Source: a virus. Taken from it: a stretch of 12,453 bases of DNA. The stretch is taken from UHGV virus genome UHGV-0283832, one strand, 5' to 3'. Below, piece after piece: positions 1 to 12,377 of the stretch. Position 1 is the stretch's first letter; every line of letters starts with the position of its first letter. The notes under the pieces are model-generated. The model had not been told where the DNA came from. It did not search any database and saw only the letters and a program-made list of their open reading frames with translations. The position numbers were made by a program, and so were the translations under genes.

Positions 1-345
1 ACCTGAAAAGGCGTTGCTTCAGGCATAGTAGTCTCCTGAGGTTTTATTAGAATCATTATGTTTGAGCGTAGCGTTGGTAACGCTACCAGGCGCGTGAATG
101 TTACCCCATTTTATGTATGGACATGTAGTGAAAACTACAACTTTGTCGTTCGCTTTGGCATCATCTTCATTATAAAGACGGAATTTTGCATCAGCTTCTC
201 ATCAGGAAAAACAACTAAAAAATCAATCACAATACTTGTGCATTTCTTTAAACAGTTTTTTAAAACTGACTCCGGGTATGGAGCTATGGGTATTTTCTGT
301 CCCCAATGCTTTTAACAGCAATTAATTTCATAGGATGAAAGCTTA

Positions 346-1284
346 ATGCACCAATCTGGTTCTGTTTCTCTTTGTCGTTCCGCAATATCTGTTCTGGTGG
401 CTACAGCGTTATATTCACCCATAGCATTAGCATCAACTGTTGAGTATGGTGAGACAGTTGATGGTGTTGTCCTGGAAAAAGATATCCAGCTGGTTTATGG
501 GGCCGCCAATAATACGAAAATCAATCCTGGCGGAGAACAGCATATATAAGAATTTGGTGTAAGTAGTAATACTGAAATTAACGGGGGATATCAGTACATT
601 GAAATAAATGGCACCGCAGAATACTCAGTATTAAATGATGGTTATCAAATTGTTCAAATGGGTGGCGCGGTAAACCAGACTACGATCAATAATGGAGTGC
701 TACAGGTTTATGGCGCGGCGACTGATCCCACGATTAAAGGAGGGCGCTTAATTGTTGAAAAAGATGGGATTGCCGTCTTTGCCGTTATCGAAAAGGGAGG
801 ACTACTGGAGGTTAAAGCAACAGGTGATTTCAAAATATTCGTGACGGACACCGGTGCCAGCCCGGCAGCAGGAGATAACCTTACACTGGTAACAACGGGC
901 GCGGTGATGCGGCATTTACGTTGGGCAATGCCGGAAGCGTTGTTGATATCAGTACGTATGAATATACCTTGCTGGATAATGGCAACCATAGCTGGAGTCT
1001 CACAGAGAATCGCGTACAAATGCCCCCTTCAACCACGGATGTGCTGAATATGGCGGCAGCACAACCGCTGGTATTTGATGCAGAACTGGACACCGTGCGT
1101 GAGCGTCTTGGTAGCGCAAAGGGCGGCGATGTGGAGTTCGGCAATTAACAGCCGCAACAGCGTGAACACTGATGCGGGAGCTGGCTTTGAGCAAACATTG
1201 ACGGGCCTGACGCTCGGTATCGATAGTCGTTTCTCCTGTGAAGAAAGCAGCACAACTCAGGCGGGTGTAGTCTGGACGTTCTGA
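346..1284 (+). pseudogene. AIDA-I/Ag43-type autotransporter adhesin remnant, disrupted and heavily shortened
   Basis: ORF at 346 starts with a signal-peptide-like MHQSGSVSLCRSAISVLVATALYSPIALA followed by passenger-type repeats (LQVYGAATDPTIKGG, TINNGVLQVYG). An in-frame TAA sits at ~547-549, with the same frame open again through 1047. Frame changes near ~920 and ~1075. The last segment (GFEQTLTGLTLGIDSRF ... VVWTF) ends in an aromatic residue like autotransporter beta-domains. About 0.94 kb in total, versus >2.5 kb for intact family members. Its position convergent with tRNA-Pro resembles the E. coli yejO locus, but that is context inference only. Confidence 0.6.
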
Positions 1285-2247: not shown

Positions 2248-2430
2248 TTACCGCCGCAACCGCTCCGGCTTCTTCCAGTGGTACGTTATTTTCTCCTTCT
2301 CCCGATACATCTCAACGCGGCGACGGTAGGCCAGCAACTCAAGAACTCTGGTTCGTATGTTGCGCATATCCACGCCATTAAGCTGGATACCATCACGGCG
2401 GATTAATCCCAGTATTTCGGCTTCTGTCAT
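2248..2430 (-). CDS. Hypothetical small protein (60 aa), basic C-terminus
   Basis: ATG start with a G-rich Shine-Dalgarno (GGGGG about 5 nt upstream). Protein MTEAEILGLIRRDGIQLNGVDMRNIRTRVLELLAYRRRVEMYREKEKITYHWKKPERLRR. It sits directly beyond the cosQ side of cos copy A. No family recognised. Confidence 0.45.
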   Translation of the reverse strand: MTEAEILGLIRRDGIQLNGVDMRNIRTRVLELLAYRRRVEMYREKEKITYHWKKPERLRR

Positions 2431-2458: not shown

Positions 2459-2529
2459 GTCGTCGGGTCCTTCCTGGAATTATGGCCCGTTACGGGGCGG
2501 CGACCTCGCGGTTTTTCGCTATTTATGAG
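2459..2529 (+). other. Lambda-type cos site, copy A (cosQ-like, cosN, start of cosB)
   Basis: GGGTCCTTCC...GTTACG|GGGCGGCGACCT|CGCGGTTTTTCGCTATTTATGA. This is near-identical to the phage lambda cohesive-end region as I recall it (right end ...GGGTCCTTTCCGGTGATCCGACAGGTTACG, 12-nt cohesive end GGGCGGCGACCT, left end CGCGGGTTTTCGCTATTTATGAAAA). cosN is at ~2495-2506. Confidence 0.7.
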
Positions 2530-2543
2530 CTTTTTTAGAGGGA

Positions 2544-2701
2544 GGTTGTTGTTTAATTGTTTGTCATATCCATTTGATAACTAAGTAAAAATAAAGAGCA
2601 ATACAACAACCTGATAGTGTTTTTTTGATGCTAAAAATAAAAAAATGCTAATTGAATCAAATAGTTTTAAAAAAATACGTGGTTGTTGTATTGCGTATTT
2701 G
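2544..2701. repeat. cosB-like terminase-binding repeat triad (GGTTGTTGT...) with an A-tract-rich spacer
   Basis: GGTTGTTGTTTAATTG at ~2544; inverted CAATACAACAACC at ~2599-2611; direct GGTTGTTGTATTG at ~2681-2693. A-tract-rich DNA with a weak IHF-like AATCAAatagTTT lies between copies 2 and 3. The layout mirrors lambda cosB (R3-I1-R2-R1), but the repeat sequence differs from lambda R sites. Confidence 0.45.
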
Positions 2702-2723
2702 ATGGCGTAACAGAAAGTGATTT

Positions 2724-3164
2724 TTAACTTTGCTGTTCTGTAACGACTGATTGTTCCATGCTGGCACGGCGAACGCTTACGGCATGACGCCACCCAGCCA
2801 GAAAGCCAGCCATTTTATTTCGTGCCTTGCTCACATCTTCCGGTGAATAGCCGTAAATCTGCAAACCTTCATCAAATCGATGTTCTGTTTCTTCACTGGA
2901 GTACTCGTCACGCTCAGATGAAAGCAGCCTGGCAAACATAATTTTTTCCAGCGCACTGGTTTCTACGTGATATCTGATGGCCTCAAGACGGCTTTTACCT
3001 GAAGACCAAAGCAATGTATGCCCGATGTGATAACCGCCAGACTTTCCGCGATCCGCATTAAGATACGGCATCCCCTGTTTGGTCCATGCGCGAATAGTGG
3101 TTCTGTTAACCTTGAAATGTTCAGCTATTTCCTGCTGACTTACAAAACAAGCTTTATCAATCAT
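2724..3164 (-). CDS. Lambda Nu1-like (terminase small subunit N-terminal HTH) DNA-binding protein; candidate packaging-specificity / helper-packaging redirection factor
   Basis: N-terminus VSQQEIAEHFKVNRTTIRAWTKQGMPYLNADRGKSGG aligns with lambda gpNu1 NKKQLADIFGASIRTIQNWQEQGMPVLRGGGKG. ATG with AAGGT Shine-Dalgarno. At 146 aa it is shorter than Nu1 and no large terminase follows. Cos copy B lies immediately upstream, as cos lies before Nu1 in lambda. Confidence 0.75.
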   Translation of the reverse strand: MIDKACFVSQQEIAEHFKVNRTTIRAWTKQGMPYLNADRGKSGGYHIGHTLLWSSGKSRLEAIRYHVETSALEKIMFARLLSSERDEYSSEETEHRFDEGLQIYGYSPEDVSKARNKMAGFLAGWRHAVSVRRASMEQSVVTEQQS

Positions 3165-3221
3165 AATGTTACCTTAACTGCATGGTTAAATATTAATCAA
3201 GTGGTGGTGGTGTCACCTTCA

Positions 3222-3297
3222 CGGAAAAACGTCATAAATAGCGAAAACCCGCGAGGTCGCCGCCCCGTAACGGGTCCATATGCCGGAAAGGACCCGT
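3222..3297 (-). other. Lambda-type cos site, copy B (inverted relative to copy A)
   Basis: Reverse complement reads ACGGGTCCTTTCCGGCATATGGACCCGTTACG|GGGCGGCGACCT|CGCGGGTTTTCGCTATTTATGA. cosN reverse complement (AGGTCGCCGCCC) is at ~3254-3265. About 65 bp is near-identical to copy A in inverted orientation. Confidence 0.65.
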
Positions 3298-3325
3298 AAA
3301 AAAAGCCGGATTTCTCCGGCCTTAT
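3298..3325 (-). terminator. Rho-independent terminator of the morphogenesis operon
   Basis: On the minus strand: stem GCCGGA / TCCGGC with a 4-nt loop followed by a T-run, immediately after the stop of the 137-aa gene. Confidence 0.6.
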
Positions 3326-3326
3326 G

Positions 3327-3740
3327 TCAGATGGTTTTCAGTATGCGATCGACGTCGCCTTCATCGCCCTGGTTTCTGCCGTCGTATGCCATGCCGGGTG
3401 ATACGGCTTTCGGGCTGTGCATGTCCATAAAGTTTTCAAAGGCTGCGGTAAGCTCCGGCGCAACCTTTGGGCGCTCCTGCTCTATGGTCATGTTCAGGAT
3501 TTCACGAGCATTATCGACGCTAATACATGGCACGTTTGCCATTGCACGTAACAGCGGCTGATAGTCGTTATGTTCATGAAGCGCCATAATCGCATCAGCG
3601 CGCGGCTTGTCCTGCTCTTCCAGTTTGTTGAGTTGATATACGGCCTCGTAGGTTGATAAACCTCTGTCAGCCATTGCCCGCGCTTCTGCTTTAAATTTAC
3701 TCGCCAGCGGTAGCGCCATGATGCTTTCATTCGTTGCCAT
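3327..3740 (-). CDS. Hypothetical acidic protein (137 aa), last gene of the capsid operon
   Basis: ATG with GGGGA Shine-Dalgarno 4-5 nt upstream and natural composition (MATNESIMALPLASKFKAEARAMADRG...). The competing 99-aa ORF 3494-3793 in another frame is R/W-rich and rejected. No family recognised. Confidence 0.6.
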   Translation of the reverse strand: MATNESIMALPLASKFKAEARAMADRGLSTYEAVYQLNKLEEQDKPRADAIMALHEHNDYQPLLRAMANVPCISVDNAREILNMTIEQERPKVAPELTAAFENFMDMHSPKAVSPGMAYDGRNQGDEGDVDRILKTI

Positions 3741-3752
3741 CGTTTCCCCTGC

Positions 3753-4040
3753 TTATCGCGCCAGCGGCTGAACGGATACGCCAGAACCCGCAAAGGCGGC
3801 GCATTTTTTCGCGTCAGTGTCGGCGCTCTCAGGCCAGTTTACGGCGGCGATATTAAATATCCCCGTCTTGTAACACTGTGCTGATTTCTGCTTTGACGTG
3901 TCCACGGGGTACGAGGTCAGATAAACAGCCTTCCCAGATTCCTGACCATCCCACGGCTTAAACTCGCCATTGTCCGCCAGCATCAGCGGCAAAATGTACC
4001 AGCGTCGTGGATACCTGCTGACTGCCTGCAAATAACTCAA
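3753..4040 (-). CDS. Hypothetical protein, start uncertain (TTG at 4040 or ATG at ~3983)
   Basis: ORF fills the gap between the capsid gene and the 137-aa gene. Its stop overlaps the Shine-Dalgarno of the downstream gene, suggesting operon coupling. No convincing Shine-Dalgarno for either start. Confidence 0.35.
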   Translation of the reverse strand: MSYLQAVSRYPRRWYILPLMLADNGEFKPWDGQESGKAVYLTSYPVDTSKQKSAQCYKTGIFNIAAVNWPESADTDAKKCAAFAGSGVSVQPLAR

Positions 4041-4067
4041 TGTATGGAGTGTCCATAGAATCCCCCG

Positions 4068-5123
4068 TTAAGCAATTTTGACGGTAACAAATTTGCGAAT
4101 ATCTGCCGGAACCGGCTGCGGTGCGCTGTGCGTCTGCACGTACTCAATCGCCGGATCGCCGTCCTCAATCCAGTTTTTCGGGTAGTACATGTTTTGCGTT
4201 GCGCCTGTTCTTACCGCTTCCTGATCCATAATCGCACCATAGGCCACCAGCCCTTTGTTGTTGGTGTTGCCCAGGACCAGTAAATCAGGCTCAAGGAAAT
4301 ATTTTTCTGTGCCGTCGCTGTCGGCGTATTTGCCGGCATAGACGATAAGGGCAATATCGCCCAGATAGCCTTTAAAGCTCACCACTTCGCCCAGGTTTTT
4401 ACAGGCCAGTTCTGCGGCGGATTCTGAACCACGGGAAAGATCGTACAGCTCACGGAATTTTTTAAAGCTGCGTAACGTGCGCCATACCTCAACGCCCATA
4501 ATCATGACGTTTGCGGGGCAACCAGCCTGATCAGCATAAAGCTCGATGTCATAGATTGGATCGTGTGTTTCCTTATCTGCCTCTGACCACTTTTTACCCG
4601 GTCCCTGTCTGGCGATATTTTTACTTGGGATCTTCCAGTCGATTTCATAGCGTTCTATGCCTTCGCCCTCAATGATGTTTTTTCCGGTCGTTATCGCATT
4701 CACCGCCAGCCATTCCACGCGCGCTTTAATGGCGTTTATCTGGCGGCGCATGTTGCCAGTAATCAGGCGCATACGGCGGTAGGTAGGGTCGTTAAGCTGT
4801 GCCGGATCTTCTCCAGCCATGCGCATTATTGTTTTTAATGGATCGATTTCGTGTTTTGGCTTCATGTAGCCAGGGCGAATAATGCTGGTTTCGTACCCTT
4901 TATCGCGCTGAACCTGGCTACCAACCATAGGCGAACAAAACGCCGACATAGTGACTTCTTCAATATCCAGGTTATCTAACATGATGTCCTGTGTGTTGAA
5001 TGTCGCCACGTTCGGGAAAAACAGCGCGGTAAACAGCGGACTAAATTTAAATTCCGCAATATCCTCGCGATTCAGGTACGCGAAAAGCTGGTGTGTGTTA
5101 AGTGCCATTGCGTTGACTGCCAT
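4068..5123 (-). CDS. Major capsid protein, lambda gpE-like (HK97 fold)
   Basis: 351 aa with collinear motifs matching lambda gpE across the whole length: FKFSPLF, PGYMKPKHE, EDPAQLNDPTYRRMR, WSEADKETHDP, DIELYA, RSFKKF, RGSESA, KNLGEVVSFKGYLGDIALIVYAGKY, FLEPDLLVLGNT, YPKNWIEDGDPAIEY, QTHSAP. Start overlaps the upstream ORF stop (TAATG). Confidence 0.85.
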   Translation of the reverse strand: MAVNAMALNTHQLFAYLNREDIAEFKFSPLFTALFFPNVATFNTQDIMLDNLDIEEVTMSAFCSPMVGSQVQRDKGYETSIIRPGYMKPKHEIDPLKTIMRMAGEDPAQLNDPTYRRMRLITGNMRRQINAIKARVEWLAVNAITTGKNIIEGEGIERYEIDWKIPSKNIARQGPGKKWSEADKETHDPIYDIELYADQAGCPANVMIMGVEVWRTLRSFKKFRELYDLSRGSESAAELACKNLGEVVSFKGYLGDIALIVYAGKYADSDGTEKYFLEPDLLVLGNTNNKGLVAYGAIMDQEAVRTGATQNMYYPKNWIEDGDPAIEYVQTHSAPQPVPADIRKFVTVKIA

Positions 5124-5329
5124 TATTCACCCCCATGAGTCTGATTTATGCCCAGCGCCGCGCGTAAATAGGAGCGTACCTGCCAGCCTGTTGACGGCTC
5201 AACCATCGCCAGCGGATCAAGTCCTGCCGCAATGCCTGCTTTTACGTTCTGCTGGTGGCGTTCCTTGAGCGCCTTCACGATGTCGGGGCTTATGTACACC
5301 GAAACACCGCCTTTTCTCTCTTCAGCCAT
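5123..5329 (-). CDS. Hypothetical small protein (68 aa), first gene of the capsid operon
   Basis: ATG with AGAGGA Shine-Dalgarno; translationally coupled to the capsid gene. No family recognised; not similar to lambda gpD or Nu3 as far as I can recall. Confidence 0.5.
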   Translation of the reverse strand: MAEERKGGVSVYISPDIVKALKERHQQNVKAGIAAGLDPLAMVEPSTGWQVRSYLRAALGINQTHGGE

Positions 5330-6816: not shown

Positions 6817-8571
6817 TTATAAAAACGCGTCGCACTCGTCTGTTGTTATTGCGTTAGTCTGCGTTACCCCCTTAACTTTCCGCGTAATATATTCATGTCC
6901 GTAAACTTTTGCGGCAGGCTTCATAGCCTTTCCAAAGTCATTTACGTTTAGCGGTTTGCTCCTGCCTGCGTATGCCATAAACGCCAGATAGACGCGGTAA
7001 AGGCTGTTCCTGGTCGTGTACTTCACTGAATCGCCACCGCCCCCCATCATCAGGCCGCGCGCTTCCTCCAGAAAATTCAGGAACTGGCAAAACTCAATAA
7101 CCGGATCCGTCTGTTGCTTTATTGCCAGTGCTTCATCACCGTCACGCTGTTCCAGTAGTAAAGCCCGTGCCTTCTCAGGGGCGGTAAAGTTCGCCAGCAA
7201 TCGGCGGATAATGACAGGGATTTCAGCCGCAATCTTTTCCGGTAGCTCCCTGTCTTTTTCGGCCTCACTGACGATATTGTCGAAACGGAAAATTACGCGA
7301 CGACGTGACACACCTCCGGCCCGTTCGGTGAATATCATCGGATTGTTATTGGTTGCCAGCACCACCGCCCTGATTACCGCCGTAAAACGCTTTTCATATT
7401 TCGGGTTAATTTCCACGGGGTCGCCGCCCGTGATTTTCTTGATGCCCGTTCCTTCGCCTGTATATTTCGGCTGGTCAGCCAGGACGATAAGACGACTCCC
7501 GACAACCTGCGCACGTCCACCAGCATCATCAAGCGATGTCATTTCAGCGCTTACCGTGTTCTGTTTCCCTGCCAGAAGGCTGGCTATGTGCGTGAATGTA
7601 CTTTTACCGCTCCCGCCATCTCCGGTGGCCTCAATAAACATCTGCCAGTCGTACCGGTTCGCCATAATCATGTACAGCGCGGCACATATACGCATCATCT
7701 TGCGCGGGTCTTTTCCGGCTGCGTGCTCAAGCCATTTATGAAAGTTTGGCGCGTTATCGCGGATGTTCTCCCCTGGTGCTGGTGGCGTGTACTCAATGCC
7801 GTTGTGCGTGGTGATCCAGCTCTCCGGCGTGTGCGGGGAAAATTCCCCCGTTTTCAGGTCAAGCGCACCATTGGCGAACGGCAGCAAATCGCCGGACGGC
7901 TCGCCCATTGGTTCGGCAATAACTTTTAACGCTTCCACGGCGTTATTGATTACGCGCTTGCTGAAAGTGGCCCTGTGCTCTGAATAGATCGCCACCATTT
8001 CGCGGCTAAGTTCCATTGTGCTGACCGGACACCATACCCCGCCGCGCCATACGTGAACGATTTCACTTTCAGGATGTACGCAAACGCCATCAAAGCGATC
8101 GGCAAGCAGCTGCGCGCGCTCACTGTCCGCCATCTGCGAAAGTTGCGCCTTTTGCTTTACCGGAAGCTCAATGACCAGACCATCAGAAAGATTCTGGCGC
8201 TCACGGGCCAGATATTCGCGCCAGTTCTCCACCTTCTGACCGTGCATACCCTCAGGATAAAAATTTGCATCCTGTACGCCTGCCGCCGCCAGCTTCTGAC
8301 CAATCGCCTTTATCATTACTGGCGCAAGATATCCGGCCCTGAATATGCGCACGGATTTTCTGCCTTCCGGCACAATTTGCAGCTTATCCAGTTCGGATAA
8401 CTGCTGCTCCCCAAGCCACACAGGAGGCTCATTATCTCCGGCCATACGCGCGTCATGTTCCTGCCATTGTTTTGCGTGTGACCAGGCATCACTACCCGCA
8501 AAAATAATGACTTCTGTTTCTTTGTGTTTTATGCCGCGTGACTGCTGTTTTACGTTCGGTGCCAGTTTCAT
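6817..8571 (-). CDS. Replication initiator: P4-family primase / helicase-type NTPase (pri-rep)
   Basis: 584 aa. Walker A GDGGSGKST (encoded at ~7596-7630) with the surrounding FIEATGDGGSGKSTFTHIASLLAG typical of the phage/plasmid P4-family primase C-terminal NTPase domain. An N-terminal ~300 aa domain precedes it. ATGA overlap with the upstream ORF; followed by the iteron array. Confidence 0.85.
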   Translation of the reverse strand: MKLAPNVKQQSRGIKHKETEVIIFAGSDAWSHAKQWQEHDARMAGDNEPPVWLGEQQLSELDKLQIVPEGRKSVRIFRAGYLAPVMIKAIGQKLAAAGVQDANFYPEGMHGQKVENWREYLARERQNLSDGLVIELPVKQKAQLSQMADSERAQLLADRFDGVCVHPESEIVHVWRGGVWCPVSTMELSREMVAIYSEHRATFSKRVINNAVEALKVIAEPMGEPSGDLLPFANGALDLKTGEFSPHTPESWITTHNGIEYTPPAPGENIRDNAPNFHKWLEHAAGKDPRKMMRICAALYMIMANRYDWQMFIEATGDGGSGKSTFTHIASLLAGKQNTVSAEMTSLDDAGGRAQVVGSRLIVLADQPKYTGEGTGIKKITGGDPVEINPKYEKRFTAVIRAVVLATNNNPMIFTERAGGVSRRRVIFRFDNIVSEAEKDRELPEKIAAEIPVIIRRLLANFTAPEKARALLLEQRDGDEALAIKQQTDPVIEFCQFLNFLEEARGLMMGGGGDSVKYTTRNSLYRVYLAFMAYAGRSKPLNVNDFGKAMKPAAKVYGHEYITRKVKGVTQTNAITTDECDAFL

Positions 8572-10840: not shown

Positions 10841-12082
10841 CTACACGGCTCGGATACCCCTTTTACCACTGGCGAGGGTTACGCCCGTCGCCGCAGCCTC
10901 GACAAATTCGCCCCACCAGCGCATCAGCACGATGCGTTTTTCTATGTAGTTGCTCCGGTTGTATGCCCGTCTAACTTCGTTGGTGTCGACGTGGGCAAGT
11001 GCCGCCTCTATTACGTCCGGCTCGAATCCTTCCTCGTTCGCTGCTGTGCTGAATATGGCGCGTAATCCATGAGACACCAGCACGCCAGCGAATCCCATAC
11101 GCCGCAATGCTGCGTTAGCTGTCTGGCTGTTCATCGGCTGCTGTGGGTCTTTCAGACTTGGGAAAACGTAATTGCGGTGGTGGCTGATTGGTTTCATGGC
11201 CTCCAGCACCGCCATAGCCTGACCGGAAAGCGGGATAACGTGATCCCTGCGCATCTTCATGCGTCCGGCAGGTATCGTACATTGCTTCGCGTCCAGGTTG
11301 ATTTCATCCCACCGCGTTGATGACGCTTCGGCGGGACGGGTTACGGTCAGTAACTGCCATTCAATCAGTAATCTGGTCTGCCGTTCTGTTGCCGATACTG
11401 ATAAAGCCTGCATAAGCTCCGGCAGCTGTTCGGGGCGGATTGTTGGCATATGTTTTTTTACAGGTGAGGGAAACGCCTTACGCACATTCATAGCCGGATT
11501 GGCATCAATCAGCCCACTGTTGGCGGCGTAATCCATTACCTCATTAACGCGCTGTAAAACCCGCTTGAGTGTTTCCAGGTTGCCGCGCTCCTTGATGGGT
11601 GTAAGCACTTCAACGAACCTTCGGGCGGTGAGGGTATCTATTGGCGTGTTGCCGATGAACGGGAATACATATTTATCCAGCGAACGCCAGATGTCTTTAA
11701 TCGTGTTGGGGGCCAGATTCTGGCTGATTTTCACCTGGTACCATGCCGCCGCCACATTTTCGAACGTGTTCCCTTGTCTTCGGGCCTCTGTCTCTCTTTT
11801 TTGCCTCTCGTGGTCCTGCGGGTCAGTTCCGGCACTGATTAACGTCCTGTACTCGCTACGGCGTTTTCTGGCATCAGCCAGGGAAACATCTTCAAGCGAT
11901 CCAAAACTCAGCAATATTCTTTTTTTGTCCGATGGTCGGTAGTAGGAAAATCTCCAGAGTTTTGATCCAGACGGTTTGACCAGGAGAAAAAGCCCTCCGC
12001 CGTCCTGCAGGGTGTACTCCTTTTGCGCTGGTCTGGCTGCTTTGATCTGCACTGTGGTTAATGGGTGTGTTTTTCTCGCCAT
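10841..12082 (-). CDS. int: Tyrosine recombinase / integrase, P4-type (with N-terminal arm-binding domain)
   Basis: Track ORF starts at a GTG (12100); the likely start is the ATG 6 codons in (MARKTHPLTTVQIKAARPAQKEYTLQDGGGLFLLVKPSGSKLWRFSYY...), a typical N-terminus for P4-like integrases. Length ~413 aa. Sits adjacent to the tRNA 3' end and arm-type repeats. Confidence 0.9.
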   Translation of the reverse strand: MARKTHPLTTVQIKAARPAQKEYTLQDGGGLFLLVKPSGSKLWRFSYYRPSDKKRILLSFGSLEDVSLADARKRRSEYRTLISAGTDPQDHERQKRETEARRQGNTFENVAAAWYQVKISQNLAPNTIKDIWRSLDKYVFPFIGNTPIDTLTARRFVEVLTPIKERGNLETLKRVLQRVNEVMDYAANSGLIDANPAMNVRKAFPSPVKKHMPTIRPEQLPELMQALSVSATERQTRLLIEWQLLTVTRPAEASSTRWDEINLDAKQCTIPAGRMKMRRDHVIPLSGQAMAVLEAMKPISHHRNYVFPSLKDPQQPMNSQTANAALRRMGFAGVLVSHGLRAIFSTAANEEGFEPDVIEAALAHVDTNEVRRAYNRSNYIEKRIVLMRWWGEFVEAAATGVTLASGKRGIRAV

Positions 12083-12117
12083 ATGTCTATGATTCCACAC
12101 GAAAAAACAGGGGTTTA

Positions 12118-12300: not shown

Positions 12301-12377
12301 TGGTCGGCACGAGAGGATTTGAACCTCCGACCCCCGACACCCCATGACGGTGCGCTACCAGGCTGCGCTACGTGCCG
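12301..12377 (-). tRNA. proL: tRNA-Pro (anticodon GGG)
   Basis: Reverse complement reads CGGCACGTAGCGCAGCCTGGTAGCGCACCGTCATGGGGTGTCGGGGGTCGGAGGTTCAAATCCTCTCGTGCCGACCA: 77 nt, cloverleaf-compatible, anticodon loop T-GGG-GT, encoded CCA. It matches the E. coli proL-type tRNA as I recall it. Confidence 0.9.

What the first reader, a model, noticed from the sequence alone, without database searches (positions are those of the whole stretch)
2459..3297. Two inverted copies of a lambda-type cosQ-cosN site bracket the Nu1-like gene and the cosB-like repeats
Both ~65-bp copies carry the 12-nt cohesive-end sequence GGGCGGCGACCT with lambda-like flanks and are near-identical to each other in opposite orientation. 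Copy A (2459-2529) is followed by three GGTTGTTGT repeats in a cosB-like layout. Copy B (3222-3297) sits directly in front of the Nu1-like gene, as cos sits before Nu1 in lambda. A single genome with two opposed cos sites ~760 bp apart is not a standard arrangement I know. Three explanations fit: (a) a duplicated, possibly decoy or non-functional cos; (b) an invertible segment, where recombination between the inverted repeats would move the R repeats from one cosN to the other and reverse packaging direction; (c) cutting at both sites to excise a small fragment. All three are inference.
Basis: partly seen in the sequence, partly recalled or inferred. Interest (0 to 1): 0.8.

Follow-up and report, generated by a model that had tools for sequence, protein, structure and literature searches.

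The report
Satellite island's two opposed cos sites
The two facing lambda-type DNA-packaging (cos) sites are real, but they are the already published cos1/rpp/cos2 packaging cassette of an E. coli phage-satellite island; two things I did not find reported are that the second site is a complete cos site of a different phage class, and that the segment between the sites occurs in both orientations in public genomes.

Summary
Arms 2464-2535 and 3225-3296 form a 72-nt, 86% inverted repeat, and each arm carries GGGCGGCGACCT (2495-2506 on +, 3254-3265 on -).

The "Nu1-like" gene (3164..2724, - strand) is rpp, the gene for redirecting phage packaging. It matches RppC (PDB 6HLK) at E=5.7e-31 and is close to RppA.

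The window holds an EcCICFT073-family phage-inducible chromosomal island (PICI) at tRNA-Pro. Its two cos sites were published as cos1 and cos2 in 2018 and 2019. Copy B is cos1, with the Rpp box at the lambda R3 position. Copy A is cos2. In CFT073 itself the two sites are also convergent.

I did not find the following in the papers I searched:
- **cos2 is a complete phage-type cos.** It has cosQ, cosN and R3(+)/R2(-)/R1(+) repeats, matching the cos site just upstream of terS in lambdoid prophages of a TerS class unlike lambda's.
- **The cassette is modular.** Different islands pair two different cosB classes, and cos2's class varies between islands.
- **The segment between the two cosN sites is inverted in some genomes.** One clone (15 genomes) shows an exact reverse complement. 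An rpp-less cassette occurs in both orientations (3 versus 9 complete genomes, and both in strain GF4). The exchange maps to a 25-46 bp core containing cosN.

A regulated switch is not shown. The function of cos2 is inferred.

The parts
2248..2430 (-). Small ORF beside cos2 (60 aa here). It is an in-frame deletion variant of a conserved 93-aa island protein (phrog_1561, function unknown). It marks the backbone on the att-side of the cassette.
2464..2535 (+). Arm A, which is cos2. The cosQ-like GGGTCCTTCC lies at 2465-2474 (one T shorter than in lambda and cos1), followed by cosN and the conserved CGCGGTTTTTCGCTATTTATGA segment.
   Evidence: (matches the EcCICFT073 cos2 cosQ/cosN)
2495..2506 (+). 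cosN of cos2 (GGGCGGCGACCT, the lambda 12-nt cohesive end).
2507..2700 (+). Complete phage-type cosB of cos2: R3 at 2544-2552 (+), R2 at 2603-2611 (-), R1 at 2681-2689 (+). R3 and R2 sit at the lambda R3 and R2 distances from cosN. The region is about 78% identical to the cos region directly upstream of terS-terL-W-portal in a lambdoid prophage (L006), with all three R elements conserved.
2507..3253 (.). The 747-bp segment between the two cosN sites (cosB of cos2, rpp, cosB of cos1). Its equivalents are found inverted in other islands. It is in the standard orientation here.
2724..3164 (-). rpp (redirecting phage packaging), 146 aa. The N-terminal winged HTH resembles lambda Nu1.
   Evidence: 6HLK RppC, E=5.7e-31; RppA alignment
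3201..3213 (-). Rpp box (R3-PICI), ACACCACCACCAC, at +53..65 from the start of cosN (the lambda R3 position). It is the only R-like element of cos1 and is conserved in Rpp islands of Klebsiella, Phytobacter and Salmonella.
   Evidence: PMC9026076
3254..3265 (-). cosN of cos1.
3225..3296 (-). Arm B, which is cos1 (cosQ GGGTCCTTTCC at 3285-3295 on the - strand). It matches the published EcCICFT073 cos1, including the flank that runs into rpp.
3297..3323 (-). Terminator-like hairpin plus U-run between the 137-aa gene and cos1.
   Evidence: -17.1 kcal/mol, z = -3.8
3327..3740 (-). 137-aa gene on the backbone at the connector side of the cassette (phrog_1999, with a weak match to the C-terminal end of head maturation protease). 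Upstream of it lie homologs of the lambda D decoration protein and the lambda E major capsid protein.

Best explanation
The region is the packaging cassette of an EcCICFT073-family cos-type PICI integrated at tRNA-Pro. Copy B is cos1. It has cosQ, cosN and a single Rpp box at the R3 position, followed by rpp. According to published work, Rpp forms a heterodimer with a lambda/phi80/21-type helper TerS and retargets terminase from the phage cos to cos1. Copy A is cos2. It is a complete phage-type cos (cosQ, cosN, R3-R2-R1) belonging to a different class of lambdoid phage, whose TerS has an unrelated DNA-binding domain. My inference is that cos2 lets the island be packaged directly, without Rpp, by helpers of that second class. 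On this view the cassette carries two packaging specificities. The two sites face each other. Direct repeats of cos would be liable to terminase-mediated loss of the DNA between them, whereas inverted copies can only flip it. Such flips do occur in nature, with the exchange point at cosN. Shown here: the identity of cos1, rpp and cos2; the match of cos2's cosB to prophage cos sites; the modular swapping of cosB classes; and the natural inversions. Inferred: that cos2 is used productively by a cognate helper, the reason for the inverted layout, and the mechanism of flipping.
For: Identity:
- Rpp matches PDB 6HLK at E=5.7e-31.
- The cos1 and cos2 sequences match Fig S1A of PMC6739421.
- In CFT073, cos1 is at 7559 (+), rppA at 7660-8094 (+) and cos2 at 8298 (-), the same convergent layout.
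- Island context: integrase, primase, SSB, tRNA-Pro.

cos2 is a phage-type cos:
- Window 2507-2725 matches the cos region upstream of terS-terL-W-portal in prophage L006, with R3, R2 and R1 conserved. 298 genomes carry at least 80% of it.
- The cosB of CFT073's cos2 likewise matches the cos of O157-type prophages at 89-97%.
- The cos2 of the Nissle island matches the 21-like cos of the CFT073 prophage.
- The TerS proteins of these classes have different N-terminal DNA-binding domains.

Every cassette pairs two different specificities:
- Among 45 IMG/VR loci, each cassette combines two different cosB classes. This includes an rpp-less cassette made of two phage-type cosB regions.
- RppB-type islands keep the dual opposed layout with a different cosN class in both arms.

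Flips:
- The junction expected from an inversion is present in 15 genomes.
- The interior is an exact reverse complement, with identical flanks.
- The rpp-less cassette occurs in both orientations, with the exchange inside a 25-bp core.

Published function:
- Both cos sites mobilise plasmids, and the double deletion abolishes transfer.
Against: - In published experiments with lambda and phi80 as helpers, deleting cos2 raised island transfer, and RppA did not stimulate cos2. No benefit of cos2 has therefore been measured.
- No experiment has used a helper whose TerS matches cos2's cosB.
- In the one helper-embedded island I examined (L037), the host prophage's cosB is 21-like while the island's cos2 is of the GGTTGTTGT type. 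cos2 therefore does not simply track the resident helper.
- Rpp islands in Klebsiella, Phytobacter and Salmonella have cos1 only, so cos2 is dispensable for the family.
- The cosQ of cos2 lacks one T relative to lambda and cos1. The effect on termination is unknown.
Confidence: 0.6

Rival explanations
1. cos2 is a non-adaptive relic. A phage cos left end (cosN-cosB) became joined to the island through cohesive-end joining or recombination at the conserved cosN core. It persists because it is only mildly harmful and has no productive role.
For: Deleting cos2 raised transfer with lambda or phi80 as helper. Rpp islands of other genera lack cos2. The type of cos2 does not match the embedding helper in L037. 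One copy in GF4 (L085) has a degenerate cosN and a frameshifted neighbouring ORF.
Against: The dual opposed layout is kept across at least 5 cosB pairings, 3 cosN variants (two exact 12-mers plus the RppB class) and several integration sites. All three R elements are intact and at correct spacing. cosN co-varies in both arms. A relic would be expected to decay or be lost more often.
Confidence: 0.22
2. cos2 is a decoy that interferes with phages. It recruits and wastes the terminase of phage classes whose TerS cannot be bound by Rpp. Cutting at cos2 yields abortive complexes and thereby lowers the yield of that phage.
For: cos2 carries the complete binding array for a TerS class whose DNA-binding domain is unlike Nu1. 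Satellites commonly interfere with their helpers (PMC6739421).
Against: A replicating island supplies many cos2 copies, but each cut also breaks island concatemers. No interference data exist. The rpp-less cassette with two phage-type cos sites looks like a packaging device rather than a defence.
Confidence: 0.08
3. The cassette is a functional invertible switch. Flipping is frequent and adaptive, for example by reversing packaging polarity or toggling which cosB is paired with which cosQ.
For: Both orientations exist in nature with clean exchange at cosN. Strain GF4 carries one island in each state.
Against: All four inverted rpp-type loci that I compared, of 15 genomes, were 100% identical, indicating a single clone. 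64-68 genomes are in the standard state, and all 10 listed places encoding the window's exact Rpp are standard. After a flip, each cos still has cosQ, cosN and cosB in the correct order, so no obvious change in phenotype follows. There is no invertase gene in or beside the cassette.
Confidence: 0.08
4. Terminase cuts at both sites to release the ~750-bp fragment as a functional product.
For: Two cuttable cosN sites lie 759 bp apart.
Against: Both ends of the fragment would carry the same 5'-GGGCGGCGACCT overhang. It could therefore neither circularise nor be packaged, since it is far below capsid size. No such element is known.
Confidence: 0.02

Closest known systems
EcCICFT073 cos1/rppA/cos2 (Fillol-Salom et al. 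2018 ISME J, PMC6092414; 2019 Mol Cell, PMC6739421)
   Same: The backbone gene order is the same (integrase, AlpA-like regulator, primase, SSB, E-like capsid protein, D-like decoration protein, 137-aa gene, cos1, rpp, cos2, small ORF). cos1 is near-identical, including the Rpp box. By my reading of Fig S1C, Rpp is about 97% identical to RppA. cos2 has the same cosQ/cosN half and the same convergent orientation.
   Different: The integration site differs (tRNA-Pro/yejO here, phoQ-roxA in CFT073). The cosB of cos2 belongs to another class (GGTTGTTGT R elements here, ATGTCCGG in CFT073). The small ORF is a 60-aa deletion variant. The papers do not state the relative orientation of the sites, a phage origin for cos2's cosB, or any inversion.
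Phage lambda cos (cosQ-cosN-cosB with R3-I1-R2-R1) and its relatives in phages 21, phi80 and N15 (review: Murialdo & Feiss 2022, PMC9026076)
   Same: cos2 has an identical 12-nt cosN, a near-identical cosQ and I2 region, and three R elements in the +/-/+ order, with R3 and R2 at lambda's distances from cosN. cos1 resembles the single-R3 layout of N15, as Murialdo and Feiss proposed.
   Different: The R sequences are unrelated to lambda's CGTTTCC. No terS follows cos2; instead the 3' end of rpp converges on it. No exact IHF consensus lies between R3 and R2, only a site with one mismatch found by my own reading (one search found no exact match there). There are two cos sites on one replicon.
Helper-embedded PICI 11capE sharing a 258-bp cos region with its helper prophage 50icd (PMC10111431)
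   Same: It is a precedent for a Gram-negative PICI carrying a phage-length cos region (including cosB) about 90% identical to a helper's. The same island family also inserts into prophage late genes.
   Different: That report describes one shared cos with the resident helper. Here the phage-type cos is the second, inverted site, and in L037 it does not match the embedding helper.
Invertase-driven invertible segments (Hin, Gin, Cin) and Fim-type switches
   Same: A short segment bounded by inverted repeats is found in both orientations.
   Different: No dedicated recombinase gene lies beside the segment. The repeats are terminase cleavage sites. Inversion is rare or clonal in most lineages. 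No promoter or gene fusion is obviously toggled.

Membership tests
EcCICFT073-type (Rpp) cos PICI | Encodes an Rpp protein (TerS-like winged HTH plus a dimerisation region) | tested here: met
   6HLK RppC, E=5.7e-31 over residues 2-125; near-identical to the printed RppA sequence; the conserved R21-T22 alpha-2 residues are invariant in 13 homologs.
EcCICFT073-type (Rpp) cos PICI | cos1 consists of cosQ and cosN followed by the R3-PICI box at bp ~48-65, directly upstream of rpp | tested here: met
   ACACCACCACCAC at +53..65. It is identical in CFT073 and conserved in Klebsiella, Phytobacter and Salmonella islands. This matches the proposal in PMC9026076.
EcCICFT073-type (Rpp) cos PICI | PICI backbone: integrase at one end next to an att/tRNA site, AlpA-type regulator, primase-replicase, about 10 kb, no terminase large subunit or tail genes | tested here: met
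   integrase, D5_N primase, SSB, capsid E; tRNA-Pro at 12301-12377; AlpA match is only weak, E=0.0035, below Pfam's cut-off. Gene order equals that of CFT073.
EcCICFT073-type (Rpp) cos PICI | Induced, packaged and transferred by a lambdoid helper; Rpp binds TerS and blocks the phage | not testable with these tools
   Shown experimentally only for EcCICFT073 and for RppA, RppB and RppC (PMC6739421). For this island it is inferred from homology.
lambda-type cos site (applied to cos2, copy A) | cosQ, the 12-nt cosN, and cosB with R3-(I1)-R2-R1, where R2 is inverted | tested here: met
   The layout matches a prophage cos upstream of terS. The IHF (I1) consensus is not met exactly.
lambda-type cos site (applied to cos2, copy A) | Cleaved by terminase and able to initiate and terminate packaging | not testable with these tools
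   Published for EcCICFT073 cos2 on plasmids. That cos2 has a different cosB class from the one in the window.
Site-specific invertible DNA switch | A dedicated recombinase gene adjacent to, or acting on, the inverted repeats | tested here: not met
   ORF and Pfam survey: only rpp lies inside the segment. The nearest recombinase is the island integrase about 7.6 kb away.
Site-specific invertible DNA switch | Both orientations are found among close relatives or within populations | tested here: inconclusive
   Both orientations exist between strains. The inverted rpp-type set is one clone. Heterogeneity within a culture could not be examined.

The most novel reading that the evidence does not exclude
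Terminase itself acts as the recombinase. Cutting the two opposed cosN sites releases a segment whose two ends carry identical cohesive overhangs, so it can re-anneal in either orientation. The same cohesive-end chemistry joins phage cosB 'left ends' to island cosQ 'right ends'. cosN would then be a site-specific exchange point through which satellites flip, shuffle and acquire packaging specificities (cosB, rpp or terS modules) from the helper phages they parasitise. This would give the islands a two-slot cassette that can be re-equipped to match different helpers.
Probability: 0.3. Interest if true: 0.7.

Novelty: new member of a known kind. Interest (0 to 1): 0.42.

Why it matters
The main finding is not new.

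Three points go beyond the papers I could search:
- **cos2 has a genuine phage cosB.** Earlier work reported that no phage cosB could be found in the island. cos2 in fact carries a full R3/R2/R1 array belonging to other lambdoid TerS classes. This offers a testable answer to why cos2 exists, namely a second range of helper phages that does not depend on Rpp.
- **The cassette is modular.** Islands combine different cosB classes, which bears on predicting which phages mobilise which virulence-carrying islands.
- **Clean natural inversions map to cosN.** They suggest that cos sites can act as recombination points. This matters for satellite evolution and for engineered PICI or cosmid delivery vehicles that carry more than one cos.

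Tried and rejected
- **GTDB representative genomes.** A scan with an Rpp alignment found no confirmed relative, so it gave no census across species. I used the look-up of encoding contigs instead.
- **"cos2 always matches the resident helper".** Rejected: in L037 the island sits inside a prophage whose cosB is 21-like, while the island's cos2 is of the GGTTGTTGT type.
- **"The 15 inverted genomes show recurrent switching".** Rejected: four loci are 100% identical over 14.6 kb, so they represent one clone and probably one event.
- **Separating homologous recombination from terminase cutting by mapping the crossover.** This failed. The exchange window (25-46 bp of arm identity) contains cosN in every case, and L074 shows small end differences that fit neither model cleanly.
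- **IHF site in cosB.** There is no exact consensus match, only a site with one mismatch found by eye.
- **Promoter scan.** It gave only weak 9/12 matches upstream of rpp, about twice the shuffle mean. This is not evidence for a promoter.
- **Lambda sequence.** The conclusion rests instead.
Full report
**1. Observation**

The sequence and the repeat finder show an inverted repeat with arms 2464-2535 and 3225-3296 (72 nt, 86% complementary). GGGCGGCGACCT occurs exactly at 2495-2506 (+) and 3254-3265 (-), against 0.06 expected by chance. GGTTGTTGT occurs at 2544-2552 (+), 2603-2611 (-) and 2681-2689 (+), against 0.08 expected.

Both arms carry a lambda-like cosQ (GGGTCCTT(T)CC), the cosN 12-mer and the CGCGG.TTTTCGCTATTTATGA segment. 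Phage-database hits to Lambda, DE3 (annotated 'cos site') and phage 21 cover window 2489-2536.

**2. What the surroundings are**

Nearly all genes lie on the - strand.
- Integrase at 12100..10841, next to tRNA-Pro at 12301-12377.
- A weak AlpA-like ORF, a DUF4222 protein and a D5/primase protein at 8571..6817.
- SSB and PerC.
- A lambda E-type major capsid protein at 5123..4068, a lambda D-type decoration protein, and a 137-aa protein (phrog_1999).
- Then copy B, the 146-aa 'Nu1-like' ORF, the R repeats, copy A, and a small ORF.

The 146-aa protein matches RppC (PDB 6HLK) at E=5.7e-31. It matches lambda TerS only weakly and only in the winged HTH. It is nearly identical to the RppA sequence printed in Fig S1C of PMC6739421. 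The element is therefore an EcCICFT073-family cos-type PICI.

No complete E. coli genome matches the whole window. The best match covers 89%. The packaging region, however, is 98.6-99.5% identical in 34 genomes.

**3. The arrangement is already known**

Fillol-Salom et al. [quoted passage not shown]
- Both sites mobilise plasmids.
- Deleting cos1 lowers transfer by lambda and phi80.
- Deleting cos2 raises transfer.
- Deleting both abolishes transfer.

Fillol-Salom et al. 2019 (PMC6739421) showed that RppA binds the helper TerS and that the complex recognises the cosB of cos1.

Fig S1A of the 2019 paper prints both sequences. The window's copy B, read on the - strand, equals cos1 including the flank that runs into rpp. 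Copy A equals the cosQ/cosN half of cos2.

I fetched CFT073 itself. There, cos1 has its cosN at 7559 (+), rppA is at 7660-8094 (+), and cos2 has its cosN at 8298 (-). The published pair is therefore convergent, exactly as in the window.

Neither paper, nor their supplements, nor the 2022 analysis by Murialdo and Feiss (PMC9026076) mentions orientation, inversion, or (in the last case) cos2 at all.

The Rpp box ACACCACCACCAC lies at +53..65 of cos1. It corresponds to the R3-PICI that Murialdo and Feiss proposed. It is conserved in Rpp islands of Klebsiella, Phytobacter and Salmonella.

**4. What cos2 is**

Downstream of cosN, the window's cos2 differs from CFT073's cos2. The window segment 2507-2725 is about 78% identical to the region directly upstream of terS-terL-W-portal in a lambdoid prophage (L006). 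R3 (GGTTGTTGT), R2 (ACAACAACC) and R1 (GGTTGTTGT) are all conserved there, and homology ends where the phage's terS begins. In total, 298 E. coli genomes carry at least 80% of this cosB.

The other cos2 types behave the same way.
- The cosB of CFT073's cos2 (ATGTCCGG / CCGGACAT / CCGGACAT) is 89-97% identical to the cos region of prophages found in more than 1000 genomes, again just upstream of terS.
- The cos2 of the Nissle 1917 island is 21-like, resembling the cos of the CFT073 prophage.

The TerS proteins of these classes have different N-terminal DNA-binding domains. The GGTTGTTGT-class TerS is unlike Nu1 in that domain.

cos2 is therefore a complete phage-type cos of a specificity class other than lambda or phi80. 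This explains why the original comparison with lambda and phi80 found 'no phage cosB'.

**5. Conservation and modularity**

Every E. coli island I read has two opposed cos sites around rpp, or around an island terS.

RppB-type islands keep this layout but with a different cosN class in both arms. Strain GF4 has the variant GGGCGTCGACCT in three of its four arms; the fourth (left arm of L085) is degenerate.

An IMG/VR scan for the cos on the small-ORF side returned 45 loci. Listing the small-ORF side first and the connector side second, they pair as follows:
- GGTTGTTGT with the Rpp box: 8 loci.
- ATGTCCGG with the Rpp box: 7 loci.
- 21-like with GGTGGTGG plus terS: about 10 loci.
- A lambda-like class with GGTGGTGG plus terS: about 8 loci.
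- An rpp-less 512-bp cassette made of the ATGTCCGG and GGTTGTTGT cosB regions placed back to back, retaining a vestige of the rpp 3' end.

Every pairing combines two different cosB classes.

By contrast, Rpp islands of Klebsiella, Phytobacter and Salmonella carry cos1 only.

**6. Inversion test**

I built the junction expected if the segment between the two cosN sites were flipped. It is present at full length in 15 of 5426 complete genomes. The standard junction is present in 64-68 genomes.

In L016, rppA points against the backbone. Compared with a standard island that has the same proteins (L038):
- The 727-bp interior is an exact reverse complement, with 0 mismatches.
- The flanks are identical for 2070 nt on one side and 900 nt on the other.

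However, four inverted loci are 100% identical over 14.6 kb. They represent one clone and probably one event.

The rpp-less cassette gives a second case.
- In IMG/VR there are 4 loci in one orientation and 4-5 in the other. They sit in mosaic backbones, and the interiors differ by 0-5 nt once flipped.
- In complete genomes there are 3 in one orientation and 9 in the other.
- Strain GF4 has one island in each state.

In all cases the cosQ halves stay with the backbone and everything inside cosN flips. The exchange window is the identical core of 25 bp (CCCGTTACG + cosN + CGCG), or 46 bp in islands with more similar arms.

No flip was found for the window's own cassette type. All 10 listed places encoding its exact Rpp are in the standard orientation.

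**7. Mechanism (inference)**

Three steps rest on published work: cos1, Rpp and helper TerS retarget terminase to the island.

For cos2, I propose direct recognition by a helper TerS of the matching class, which would give the island a second, Rpp-independent route into capsids. The evidence for this is anatomical:
- The R array is intact and at phage spacing.
- Cassettes always pair two different classes.
- An rpp-less cassette consisting only of two phage-type cos sites exists.

The evidence against it:
- Deleting cos2 helps transfer with lambda.
- The L037 island does not match its embedding helper.
- cos2 is absent from islands of other genera.

The opposed orientation means that neither site can act as a terminator for packaging started at the other, because cosQ would be on the wrong side.

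From my own knowledge of classical lambda genetics (not verified in the papers searched here), terminase cutting of directly duplicated cos sites deletes the DNA between them. Inverted sites can only invert it.

A cut at both opposed cosN sites leaves a middle fragment with two identical 5'-GGGCGGCGACCT overhangs. That fragment can re-anneal in either orientation. This would explain clean flips with an exchange point at cosN across only 25 bp of identity. RecA-dependent recombination is not excluded.

**8. Verdict**

The arrangement is a known feature of a known satellite family, and the window is a new member of it, with a different cosB class in cos2 and a different integration site.

The 'non-functional copy' and 'excised fragment' ideas are not supported.

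The phage-type nature of cos2, the modular swapping of cosB classes, and the natural flips are modestly novel and can be tested directly.

Noticed in passing
window 3327-5329 (- strand): The island encodes a lambda E-type major capsid protein (351 aa), a lambda D-type decoration protein, a conserved 68-aa protein (phrog_3255) and a 137-aa protein (phrog_1999) with a weak match to the C-terminal, scaffold-like end of head maturation protease. EcCICFT073 carries the same set, although it was described as lacking capsid-morphogenesis genes and as being packaged in full-size heads. Their role is unexplained.
   Followed up: partly
L008-L010, L012, L014, L020, L022, L037: Close relatives of this island sit inside late genes of lambdoid prophages: in gene E in Klebsiella, Phytobacter and Salmonella, and in terL in E. 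coli AREA_492. These are 'helper-embedded PICIs' as described in PMC10111431. The same packaging cassette also occurs at the phoQ/roxA, yejO/tRNA-Pro and ydgV/mdtJI sites.
   Followed up: partly
window 2248-2430 (- strand): The small ORF beside cos2 is a 60-aa in-frame deletion variant, lacking about 33 internal residues, of a conserved 93-aa protein (phrog_1561, unknown function) that always flanks the cassette.
   Followed up: partly
L007, L027, L028 (both flanks of rpp): RppB-type islands have two opposed cos sites with a different cohesive-end class (...GGGGGTACGTGTACGCGCAAAAACGCGC...). They keep the Rpp box at cos1 and carry either a GGTTGTTGT-type or a TTTCCGG-type cosB at cos2. I did not identify the helper phage with this cosN.
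   Followed up: no
L003 4503-5190 (Nissle 1917 island): Sister islands at the same tRNA-Pro site replace rpp with a 180-aa TerS. Its DNA-binding domain resembles that of the GGTTGTTGT-class phage TerS, and the cos in front of it has GGTGGTGG / GTTGTTG-type repeats. The Rpp box (CACCACCACC, whose reverse complement is GGTGGTGGTG) looks related to these repeats.
   Followed up: partly
L085 and L086 (E. coli GF4, NZ_CP172217.1): One genome carries two rpp-less islands, at the phoQ and yejO sites, with the cassette in opposite orientations. Both use the cosN variant GGGCGTCGACCT. The L085 copy has a degenerate left cosN and a frameshifted small ORF.
   Followed up: partly
window 7418-7429 (- strand): A third sequence resembling cosN (GGGCGGCGACCC, one mismatch) lies inside the primase gene, without cosQ or cosB context. 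It is probably a chance match.
   Followed up: no
window 658-1047 (+ strand) and 1-2100: The left flank holds fragments of the yejO autotransporter (Pertactin and AIDA matches). In Nissle 1917 the gene is a pseudogene, and in other strains it is intact next to the island.
   Followed up: no
window 3297-3323 (- strand): A strong terminator-like hairpin with a U-run lies between the 137-aa gene and cosQ of cos1. It suggests that rpp is transcribed from its own signals inside the invertible segment or by read-through. The pattern scanner did not list it.
   Followed up: partly
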